In this document: piece by piece, positions 1,253 through 63,170 of the stretch
How positions within the stretch are numbered: the first letter of the stretch is position 1
How the letters are laid out: every line of letters begins with the position of its first letter
Source of the DNA: Hydrolagus affinis
Lineage: Eukaryota
Direction: 5' to 3'
DNA length: 64,000 nucleotides
NCBI GenBank assembly: GCA_012026655.1
Contig: JAAILG010001462.1
Location: 1 to 64,000 of the forward strand
The notes under the pieces: generated by a model
Seen by the model: only the letters and a program-made list of their open reading frames with translations
What the model was told of the DNA's origin: nothing
Database searches by the model: none
Translations under genes and position numbers: made by a program

Positions 1253-35225
<33,973 letters not shown>

Positions 35226-40869: not shown

Positions 40870-42474
40870 TTAACAGCCGGGTCTGAGTGGGATCTGCAGC
40901 AATAGCACCTGTCTGCTCTCTGACGGGTGACACTTGTTGATGTGCCTGGTCAGGCCGGGGGAGCTGACGAAGGTGGACGGGCAGTGTTTACACGAGTAGA
41001 TCTGCGCTGCCGGCTCTCCTCCATTCGGGGTCTCCTCGATACATCTGTCCCCGGGACCCGGGCAAGGACCCGGGCAGGGACCCGGGCCGAGGAGAGCGGC
41101 TTCCCCGCGGCCCATGGCGTGCCACAGCAGGTGCTTGTCTCGGATCTCGGCCGAGGGCAGGTGCACCCCGCAGAGCTGGCAGGGGAAGGACAGGCGGCTC
41201 AGCTCCTCCACTCGGGTGCTGACCGAGCAGCGGGCAGCTTGGTGCGCGGCCAGGTGTTTTCTCAGGTAAGCCTGGCGGCGGAATGTCTTACTGCAGTAAC
41301 AGCACTGGAACAGCTCCTCGCCTGCCAGCAGCGCGGAGGAGGTGGAGGAGGAGGAGGTGGTGGAGGAGGAGGAGGTGGAGGAGGCCGTGTGGGCAGCACC
41401 GCCCGGGCTCTCCCTGGAGCTGTCCAAGTGCTGAATCCGAATGACTCCCGGAGACTCGCTGCCTCCGCCCCGCTTGCCCGAGTTCTCTTTGCTCTCCGAG
41501 TCCGCCTCTCCTTGCTTCTTGACGGCTTGGGCGTCGCCGTTAGTCCCTGGACGCGGCTTGTGCCAGCGCCGATGGGAAGCCAGGTTAGCCGGGCAGCTGA
41601 AGACCTTGTCGCACTCGGGACAGCGGTATTCCACGCGGATGATCCTGGAGCACTTGTGCTGGGCTAGAGAGAAGGGGTCGGGGTATTGCTCTTTGCACAG
41701 CTGGCAGATGAATTCGCCCAGAGCGCCGCCTCCTATGGACGGGCAGCGTTTGGAGTCGCCGGCGTCCACTTTAATCCTCAAACCCAGCACGGGAGAGGTG
41801 GTCATTTCATCTTGGAAACTGAGTTTCCTGATGACTTTGGGCTTCTTCGGGGCGGTGGTTGTGGCTGTGGTTGTTGTGGGTGCCGGTGTGGGTTGCCCAG
41901 CCTTGCTCTTGCGCTGGCCTTGCTCCCCAGCTCCTGCCCCTCTCTTGCCGCTTGCTGGCAAATGCAAAGGTGAGAATAGGTGAGCGGCGCCGTCCACTTT
42001 GGAGCGCACCGCCGAGAAGGTCGGCTGCAACAGGAGCCTCTCGATTGGGTTCAGGGTCGAAGCCACGGGGAAGGATTCTGCGGGAGCCGGCGAGACCAGG
42101 CATCTGTCAACGAAAGGGTTCTTCGGCTCTTTGGCCAGAGGTTTGGCCGGGCTGTAGGGTACACTGGCCCAGCGCGATATGTTATACTCTGCGAAAGGCG
42201 GCTGGGTGTAGAAGGCACCGTTCTCCAACAACGATCCCATCGCCTGGTTTGCCTCCGAGACTTTATCCTGAGCCGACTCATGGTTGAAAGGCTCCGGGCT
42301 GCTCCTCTGAGGAGAGGGCTGCAGAACGGTGTCCCCTGGTCCAGTTGCGAGGACATCGGCGCTCGGAGGGTGAGGTTCCCGCAGCTGGTGATAGTCCTCT
42401 TTCTCCTCAGTGCGAACCCGGTAGGAAACTGGAGACGACTTTTTGTTTCTTTTCACTAGAAATCCTCTTGGCAT
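40870..42474 (-). CDS. INSM2: Insulinoma-associated protein 2, SNAG plus 5 zinc fingers, single exon, 534 aa
   Basis: Starts MPRGFLVKR (SNAG); RKLSFQDEMTTSPVLGL motif; five fingers, the first atypical; C-terminus HPSESRQVLLLQIPLRPGC is INSM2-type (INSM1 has ENRQVILLQVPVRPAC); RALGAPA1 synteny. Confidence 0.95.
   Translation of the reverse strand: MPRGFLVKRNKKSSPVSYRVRTEEKEDYHQLREPHPPSADVLATGPGDTVLQPSPQRSSPEPFNHESAQDKVSEANQAMGSLLENGAFYTQPPFAEYNISRWASVPYSPAKPLAKEPKNPFVDRCLVSPAPAESFPVASTLNPIERLLLQPTFSAVRSKVDGAAHLFSPLHLPASGKRGAGAGEQGQRKSKAGQPTPAPTTTTATTTAPKKPKVIRKLSFQDEMTTSPVLGLRIKVDAGDSKRCPSIGGGALGEFICQLCKEQYPDPFSLAQHKCSRIIRVEYRCPECDKVFSCPANLASHRRWHKPRPGTNGDAQAVKKQGEADSESKENSGKRGGGSESPGVIRIQHLDSSRESPGGAAHTASSTSSSSTTSSSSTSSALLAGEELFQCCYCSKTFRRQAYLRKHLAAHQAARCSVSTRVEELSRLSFPCQLCGVHLPSAEIRDKHLLWHAMGRGEAALLGPGPCPGPCPGPGDRCIEETPNGGEPAAQIYSCKHCPSTFVSSPGLTRHINKCHPSESRQVLLLQIPLRPGC
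41416..41435 (-). promoter_or_regulatory. Exonic RE1/NRSE (REST site), 1-bp contracted form
   Basis: TTCAGCACTTGGACAGCTCC versus consensus TTCAGCACCNNGGACAGCGCC. Confidence 0.7.
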
Positions 42475-55061: not shown

Positions 55062-55089
55062 TTCAGCACCATGGGGTATGGACAGCTCC
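55062..55089 (+). promoter_or_regulatory. Expanded (split) RE1/NRSE, 9-nt spacer
   Basis: TTCAGCACC-atggggtat-GGACAGCTCC; both half-sites near consensus. Confidence 0.65.
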
Positions 55090-62474: not shown

Positions 62475-63170
62475 TGCACACAGACATAGAGACCCAGAGA
62501 GAGGGACACAGACTCAGTAGAGACACGCACACCTTCAGAGGCACAGAGAGCGAGACACGCACACACACACACACAGATACACACACTCAGAGACACCAAG
62601 AGATACACACACTCACAGAGACACACACCCAGAGACAAAGAAAGAGACATATACGCTTAGAGACACACACACATTCAGAGACACATAGAGATGCACACAC
62701 TCAGAGACACCAAGGGACACACACACACTCACAGACACAGAGAGACACACACACTCACAAAGAAAGAGACATACACACTTAGAGACACCAAGAGAGACAC
62801 ATAAACTCACTGACACAGAGAGACAGATACACATAGAGGAGAGACACACAGAGGAGAGACACACATACACAGATACACTCACAAACACACATAGAAAAGA
62901 CACACTGACAAACTCACAAACACTTATACACAGAGGAGATAGACATATTTACCCAGACACTCACAAACAGACACACATACAAAGCAGACTGAGACACTCA
63001 CACAGAACTCAGAAACACATAAAGAAAAAGAGACGCACAGACATACTCACATAGAAACATGTAAATAGACACACAGACACTCTCTAACACATAGAGAGAG
63101 ACACACTCATATAGAGACACTCACAAACAGAGAGAGACACAAATATAGATATATTCAAACATACAGACAA
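62475..63170. repeat. Degenerate (CA/GA)-rich low-complexity satellite (AGAGACACACAC units)
   Basis: Direct reading; explains the spurious T/H/R-rich and V/C/S-rich ORFs. Confidence 0.9.

What the first reader, a model, noticed from the sequence alone, without database searches (positions are those of the whole stretch)
41416..41435. REST silencer written into the INSM2 coding sequence (dual-coding element, possibly conserved from cartilaginous fish to human)
Seen: the codons for I-Q-H-L-D-S-S in the poorly conserved ZF2-ZF3 linker read TTCAGCACTTGGACAGCTCC, an RE1 with both half-sites intact and the spacer 1 bp short. Established: REST binds canonical RE1s and also contracted and expanded variants. 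Recalled, unverified: human INSM2 has D-Q-H-P-D-S-A in the same linker, which can be encoded as TCAGCACCCGGACAGCGCC, and a neighbouring DQHPQARDSS that could encode an expanded RE1. Inference: the QHxDS peptide is conserved because the DNA is a silencer, and the in-frame contracted geometry reflects codon constraint. This would be an ancient neural/neuroendocrine repression circuit inside an exon.
Basis: partly seen in the sequence, partly recalled or inferred. Interest (0 to 1): 0.8.

Follow-up and report, generated by a model that had tools for sequence, protein, structure and literature searches.

The report
REST site hidden in INSM2 exon
The coding exon of INSM2, a neuroendocrine transcription factor gene, spells both halves of the REST silencer motif in a chimaera-type fish and in human, where REST is bound at that spot, so the exon likely doubles as an ancient repression switch, although the one-base-short spacing seen in this fish is probably a weak form.

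Summary
The 20-mer is real, in frame in INSM2 of a holocephalan. It has a perfect right half, a left half with one mismatch and a 1-nt gap.

The homologous human linker is a published REST ChIP-seq peak centred on two such units, with gaps of 10 and 1.

The conserved unit is not the contracted one:
- Bony vertebrates keep QH-x4-[DE]S, a 10-nt gap (193 of 230 linkers).
- Sharks and rays keep TM[DE]S, the RE1 core (11 of 13).
- INSM1 lacks it (0 of 116).

The residue after QH changed 19 times but kept a C-first codon (1 first-base against 15 second-base changes), which points to constraint on the DNA.

Against: gap 1 is not enriched in this genome (40 against about 31; gap 2 gives 134), and a published reporter screen found that among non-canonical gaps only 8 and 9 silence. 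A textbook 9-gap RE1 lies 12.6 kb upstream.

Verdict: likely an ancient dual-coding REST element whose spacing changes by lineage. Silencing by this contracted copy is unproven. I found no paper or earlier scan note on the exonic site.

The parts
41416..41435 (-). RE1-like element in the INSM2 coding sequence: left half TTCAGCACT (position 9 mismatched), 1-nt gap, right half GGACAGCTCC; codons I347-S353; about 1.04 kb downstream of the ATG
41416..41425 (-). Right half-site GGACAGCTCC (codons x-D-S-S); its peptide trace is kept in all jawed-vertebrate groups sampled
   Evidence: DNA seen only here and in human
41428..41435 (-). Left half-site core TTCAGCAC (codons x-Q-H)
   Evidence: CAGCAC is the main left-half contact (PMC8096226)
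40870..42474 (-). INSM2: single-exon ORF of 534 aa with an N-terminal SNAG-type sequence and five zinc fingers (domain names from own knowledge); the element lies in the linker between fingers 2 and 3
55062..55089 (+). Perfect expanded RE1, TTCAGCACC + 9-nt gap + GGACAGCTCC, in single-copy non-coding DNA 12.6 kb upstream of the INSM2 start codon; likely the stronger REST site of the locus
   Evidence: gap 9 is enriched in this genome and silences in reporters

Best explanation
The INSM2 exon linker encodes both REST half-sites in frame and likely acts as an ancient intragenic REST-binding element that would help repress INSM2 outside neural and endocrine cells, with this fish carrying a shortened and probably weak version. 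Shown: the motif here, the same half-sites in human at a REST ChIP-seq peak, and the peptide traces across jawed vertebrates. Inferred: REST fingers 3-5 read the right half (x-D-S-S codons) and fingers 7-8 read CAGCAC (Q-H codons). With both halves locked in these codons the gap can only be 1, 4, 7 or 10 nt, never 2, 8 or 9. Bony vertebrates fixed 10 and holocephalans have 1, probably by loss of three codons. Sharks and rays use the other frame (T-M-D-S, motif positions 7-21). At gap 1 the last C of CAGCAC falls on canonical position 9, so fingers 3-6 could bind normally while the left core sits one base out of register; this would explain why the synonymous TTG is tolerated. Bound REST would recruit Sin3 and CoREST (own knowledge) about 1 kb from the start, helped by the 9-gap RE1 upstream.
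For: (1) Human tile REST_chr14:36004473-36004673_nm: a REST peak without a canonical motif, centred on the peak by design; the four half-sites span nt 76-131 of 200 (hand count), and every synonymous position fits the motif. (2) QH-x4-[DE]S in 193 of 230 INSM2 linkers that range from 16 to 240 aa, and in 183 of 197 full-length ones. (3) The residue after QH is P, H, R, Q or L in 178 of 180; parsimony gives 1 first-base against 15 second-base changes (Fisher p 0.001 against pooled neighbours, 0.037 against the next position); this is the lowest share among 54 comparable columns, itself included. (4) The residue before DS can end in G in 180 of 180, and the residue before QH can end in T in 179 of 180. 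(5) TM[DE]S in 11 of 13 sharks and rays equals positions 7-9 plus 12-17, which PMC2532738 calls critical. (6) INSM1: 0 of 116 linkers. (7) INSM2 0.40-fold, p 0.002, on REST restoration. (8) Gaps 2 and 8-10 are enriched in this genome (134; 158 over three lengths), so a REST-type spacing rule holds in this lineage.
Against: Gap 1 (40 sites) and gap 10 (20 of the first 100 listed of 158, about 32) sit at background, about 31 per length, in this genome. Only gaps 8 and 9 silenced among non-canonical motifs. Half-sites bind about five-fold less, and that paper cites work that they repress poorly. The site here has a synonymous mismatch at position 9. Gap 7 is frame-compatible and in the favoured range but occurs in only 2 proteins, which is unexplained. 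Coelacanth has N-S-S, which would break the GG pair, and catshark has no trace. Only two DNA sequences were seen; the rest is inferred from proteins. The second oligonucleotide did not lower INSM2 (1.04-fold). Insm2 was not found in the supplements held for two other REST ChIP papers. No binding or expression data exist for this species.
Confidence: 0.55

Rival explanations
1. The element works in bony vertebrates, but this contracted copy is a relic of a three-codon deletion; REST control of INSM2 in this fish runs through the 9-gap RE1 at 55062-55089.
For: Gap 1 is not enriched; position 9 is lost by a synonymous change; a perfect 9-gap site lies upstream; the mammalian gap-1 unit decays in several lineages, bats among them.
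Against: QHLDSS is identical in Callorhinchus, though the rest of that linker is also similar. The other seven synonymous choices fit the motif (joint probability 0.0065 from this gene's codon use, but post hoc). Gaps of 0-1 nt are among the commonest altered spacings in mouse ChIP-PET peaks.
Confidence: 0.25
2. QH-x4-DS[SA] is a short protein motif (for example a degron or phospho-site next to the conserved KEN sequence); the RE1 likeness comes from GC-rich codons and the human peak from a CpG-rich gene body.
For: Fixed four-residue spacing; a KEN-like word upstream in 197 linkers and in no INSM1; gap 10 is outside the favoured REST spacings; GC3 of this ORF is 73%.
Against: P, L, H, Q and R share a first codon base, not a chemistry. 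Sharks replace QH by TM, which fits RE1 in another frame. Both DNA sequences use T-ending codons before QH (ATT here, GAT twice in human), which are minority codons in this ORF. The human peak is centred on the half-sites.
Confidence: 0.15
3. The DNA or mRNA is constrained here, but by another factor (another transcription factor, an RNA-binding protein or a microRNA site), not REST.
Against: Both constrained words are the two REST half-sites in the right order, and REST ChIP signal lies on them in human.
Confidence: 0.05

Closest known systems
Tandem half-site NRSEs in the first exon of CELSR3 (PMC8096226, passages)
   Same: Exonic cluster of four REST half-sites (left-11-right-9-left-11-right) with gaps outside 7-9, bound in EMSA; human INSM2 reads left-10-right-7-left-1-right (hand count).
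   Different: INSM2 is a transcription factor gene; its gaps are locked by codons to 10 or 1; its trace runs across jawed vertebrates with a change of geometry.
Coding-exon NRSEs of human and mouse clustered protocadherins (PMC2926608, passages)
   Same: REST sites written into protein-coding sequence (20 of 25 in human), bound in EMSA.
   Different: The authors think those arose anew in mammals; the INSM2 element appears to date from early jawed vertebrates and is non-canonical.
Non-canonical RE1/NRSE with 8-9-nt gap (PMC9903721, PMC8096226)
   Same: Two half-sites in the same order; the upstream site at 55062-55089 is a direct member.
   Different: The exonic sites have gaps of 1 or 10, which did not silence as classes in the reporter screen.
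INSM2 as a REST-regulated gene (PMC11456559, passage and supplement row)
   Same: INSM2 is tagged as an RE1 gene from ChIP-Atlas and falls when REST is restored.
   Different: No site, exonic position or conservation is given in the passage seen.

Membership tests
Canonical RE1/NRSE | Left half ending in CC, 2-nt gap, right half GGACAG | tested here: not met
   Gap is 1 and position 9 is T
Non-canonical RE1 (exonic site 41416-41435) | Both half-sites in left-right order on one strand | tested here: met
   One mismatch in the left half, none in the right
Non-canonical RE1 (exonic site 41416-41435) | Gap of 7-9 nt (bound) or 8-9 nt (silencing) | tested here: not met
   Gap 1 here, 10 in bony vertebrates; gap 1 at background in this genome; 0-1-nt gaps do occur in ChIP-PET peaks
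Non-canonical RE1 (exonic site 41416-41435) | REST occupancy in vivo | tested here: inconclusive
   Met for the homologous human linker from published data; no data for this species; which unit is bound is unknown
Non-canonical RE1 (exonic site 41416-41435) | REST-dependent silencing by the element | not testable with these tools
   The reporter result for the human tile is in Table S6 of PMC9903721, too large to read
Non-canonical RE1 (upstream site 55062-55089) | Both halves perfect with an 8-9-nt gap | tested here: met
   gap 9 is the commonest class among 42 long exact matches in this genome (11 of 42, hand count)
Dual-coding element (protein plus cis-regulatory code) | Nucleotide constraint beyond what the protein needs | tested here: inconclusive
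   Indirect test positive at one position, weak at two others; a direct synonymous-site test needs orthologue DNA, obtained only for human
INSM2 orthologue group | Groups with named INSM2 proteins and not with INSM1 | tested here: met
   Tree of 20 proteins; a separate INSM1 lies elsewhere in the genome (L058)

The most novel reading that the evidence does not exclude
REST silences INSM2 through codon-locked spacings (10 nt and 1 nt) that current models call inactive. One exonic silencer has been kept since the first jawed vertebrates while switching geometry by lineage (10-gap in bony vertebrates, canonical core in sharks and rays, 1-gap in chimaeras) and multiplying as coding repeats (15 units in Rana temporaria), so REST binding dictates the protein sequence and length of this linker.
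Probability: 0.3. Interest if true: 0.78.

Novelty: new variant of a known kind. Interest (0 to 1): 0.58.

Why it matters
It would be a clear case of a transcription-factor site shaping a protein for over 400 million years (date from own knowledge), readable from amino acids alone. It ties a neuroendocrine repressor gene directly to REST at a named site. It also gives a natural test of which half-site spacings REST can use, on which published ChIP and reporter data disagree. Synonymous or linker variants in human INSM2 could then alter expression.

Tried and rejected
Orthologue DNA: a metagenome scan with human INSM2 gave 56 loci, none near the identity and coverage of a vertebrate INSM2; one chance-level RE1-like match was found among them. 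Sequencing runs holding the gene were listed, but no read-level comparison was obtained, so DNA conservation among close relatives and at the upstream site is open. The genome search's own reversed-pattern control was rejected because it contains a CpG; gaps 4-6 served as background instead. A structure prediction had not finished, so nothing is claimed about the fold of the linker. REST itself was not searched in this genome, as no tool supplied a query. Supplements of PMC2573930 and PMC4055426 held no Insm2 entry. The supplement of PMC12202048 could not be read. Table S2 of PMC9903721 is held cut at 16,524 rows and its reporter results are unreadable, so neither the tile's activity nor a human upstream site could be checked. 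Earlier scan notes gave nothing relevant. Rejected: conservation of the contracted geometry itself from cartilaginous fish to human; an RE1 in INSM1.

Full report
Observation. Window 41416-41435(-) reads TTCAGCACTTGGACAGCTCC. It lies inside a 534-aa single-exon ORF at 40870-42474(-), at codons I347-Q-H-L-D-S-S353. A tree of 20 proteins places the ORF in INSM2, sister to Callorhinchus INSM2 (100/99), and a second gene of this genome (L058) in INSM1. The genome is therefore of a holocephalan.

Is gap 1 special in this genome? Whole counts of TCAGCAC-N-GGACAG were 40 for gap 1, 134 for gap 2, 92 for gaps 4-6 together and 158 for gaps 8-10 together. Among the first 100 rows listed, I counted by hand 40, 40 and 20 for gaps 8, 9 and 10. 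Gaps 2 and 8-10 are enriched (p 1e-27 and 2e-5); gap 1 is not clearly so (p 0.06-0.10), and gap 10 scales to about 32, which is background. With the longer right tail, 42 sites split by hand count as gap 9: 11, gap 8: 6, gap 2: 6, gap 1: 5 (three of them the same word), gap 10: 0, others 14. The known REST spacing rule thus holds in this lineage, and the finding's geometry is outside it.

Literature on spacing (passages read, not whole texts). PMC9903721: among atypically spaced motifs only gaps 8 and 9 repressed in the reporter screen. PMC8096226: ChIP-nexus gaps are 2 or 7-9; fingers 3-5 read the right half, fingers 7-8 read CAGCAC and finger 6 reads position 9 in canonical sites; right-half-only sites are bound; the first exon of CELSR3 holds four half-sites with 11-nt gaps that bind in EMSA. 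PMC2573930: altered gaps in mouse ChIP-PET peaks are most often 0-1 nt or expanded. PMC2532738: positions 7-9 and 12-17 are critical, and half-sites carry 13-14 tags against 68 for full sites. PMC2926608: most human and mouse protocadherin NRSEs are in coding exons. PMC3298695: 101 of 2596 NRSF peaks overlapped coding sequence. Coding RE1s are therefore known, and contracted ones are seen in peaks but not shown to silence.

Human evidence. Human INSM2 has DQHPQARDSS followed by DQHPDSA in this linker. Table S2 of PMC9903721 contains the tile REST_chr14:36004473-36004673_nm, whose sequence, read by eye, encodes this linker. The library's non-motif tiles are ENCODE REST peaks without a canonical motif, centred on the peak; that '_nm' marks this class is my inference. 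The tile holds a left half, 10 nt, a right half, 7 nt, a left half, 1 nt and a right half, spanning nt 76-131 of 200. The tile's reporter result is in a table too large to read. In PMC11456559, INSM2 is tagged as an RE1 gene and falls to 0.40-fold (p 0.002) with one REST-restoring oligonucleotide and not with the weaker one (1.04). Supplements held for two other REST ChIP papers had no Insm2 entry.

Orthologue proteins. Two searches (best 120 each) and cluster members gave 235 INSM2-like proteins, 230 with a parsable linker. These include close relatives and gene models with deleted linkers. QH-x4-DS[SAT] occurs in 180 of 230 and QH-x4-[DE]S in 193 of 230, or 183 of 197 full-length linkers. 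The 14 exceptions are 10 sharks and rays, 2 coelacanth models and 2 birds. QH-x4-DS implies a 10-nt gap. The residue after QH is P, H, R, Q or L in 178 of 180, the set with C-first codons. On a tree of those 180 it changed 19 times, with 1 first-base and 15 second-base changes, against 100 and 107 at six neighbouring positions (Fisher p 0.001; 0.037 against the next position alone). It has the lowest first-base share of 54 comparable columns, itself included; alignment error may inflate the controls. The residue before DS can end in G in 180 of 180 (p about 0.013), and the one before QH can end in T in 179 of 180, which is weak evidence because most residues can. Sharks and rays have TM[DE]S in 11 of 13, which can encode motif positions 7-21 in the canonical frame. 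Two holocephalans have QHLDSS. Mammals add a gap-1 unit, compatible with the motif in 44 of 91, against 89 of 91 for the gap-10 unit; that set was chosen for having the gap-10 unit. INSM1 has the gap-10 or gap-1 word in 0 of 116 linkers. Rana temporaria repeats the unit 15 times and Lithobates 8 times under a relaxed pattern.

Mechanism. Shown: the motif here, the motif and a REST peak in human, and a codon-level signature in bony vertebrates. Inferred: the linker DNA is a REST-binding half-site element about 1 kb into the gene that helps keep INSM2 off where REST is present. With Q-H and D-S as the halves, the frame allows gaps of 1, 4, 7 or 10 only. The holocephalan copy probably arose by loss of three codons, and the mammalian gap-1 unit by a separate duplication. 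At gap 1 the right half and position 9 are in canonical register and the left core is one base off, so binding is probably weak and driven by the right half. The upstream 9-gap site likely carries more of the repression in this fish. Why gap 10 was fixed and not gap 7 is unexplained. Rivals: this copy is a relic (0.25), the peptide is a protein motif next to a KEN sequence (0.15), or another reader constrains the DNA (0.05).

Novelty. Seven searches of the held library found one paper linking INSM2 to REST, and none whose listing or passages describe an exonic site or its conservation. Subscription journals, bioRxiv supplements and several large supplements were not visible. Earlier scan notes had nothing on it. 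This is a new variant of a known kind: a coding-exon REST element, unusual for its age, its codon-locked spacing and its change of geometry.

Noticed in passing
window 55062-55089 (+): Perfect expanded RE1 with a 9-nt gap in single-copy DNA 12.6 kb upstream of INSM2; conservation not tested.
   Followed up: partly
window 15844-15999 and 18060-18224 (+): Two RapGAP-domain exons (PF02145) facing INSM2 tail to tail; likely RALGAPA1 (gene name from own knowledge of synteny).
   Followed up: partly
proteins P0235, P0232, P0009 (INSM2 linker): Tandem amplification of the RE1-like peptide unit: 15 copies in Rana temporaria, 8 in Lithobates pipiens, several MDS[AT] copies in Amblyraja.
   Followed up: partly
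window ORF linker, about 18 residues before QHLDSS: A KEN-like word is kept in 197 INSM2 linkers and in none of 120 INSM1 proteins; possibly an APC/C degron specific to INSM2 (recalled motif, untested).
   Followed up: no
G000 genome-wide: Among 42 long exact RE1 matches, 9-nt gaps (11) outnumber canonical 2-nt gaps (6); with the shorter pattern the canonical form leads (134).
   Followed up: partly
L058:68-1654 (+): INSM1 of this genome, with poly-Q and poly-P runs and no RE1-like half-site pair in the 2.5-kb locus.
   Followed up: yes
window 41054-41087 and 41335-41384: Short coding repeats in INSM2: a 12-nt unit giving PGPC repeats and a triplet run giving a Ser/Thr tract.
   Followed up: no
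window 62555-63149: Long degenerate AC/AG simple-repeat tract near the window end.
   Followed up: no
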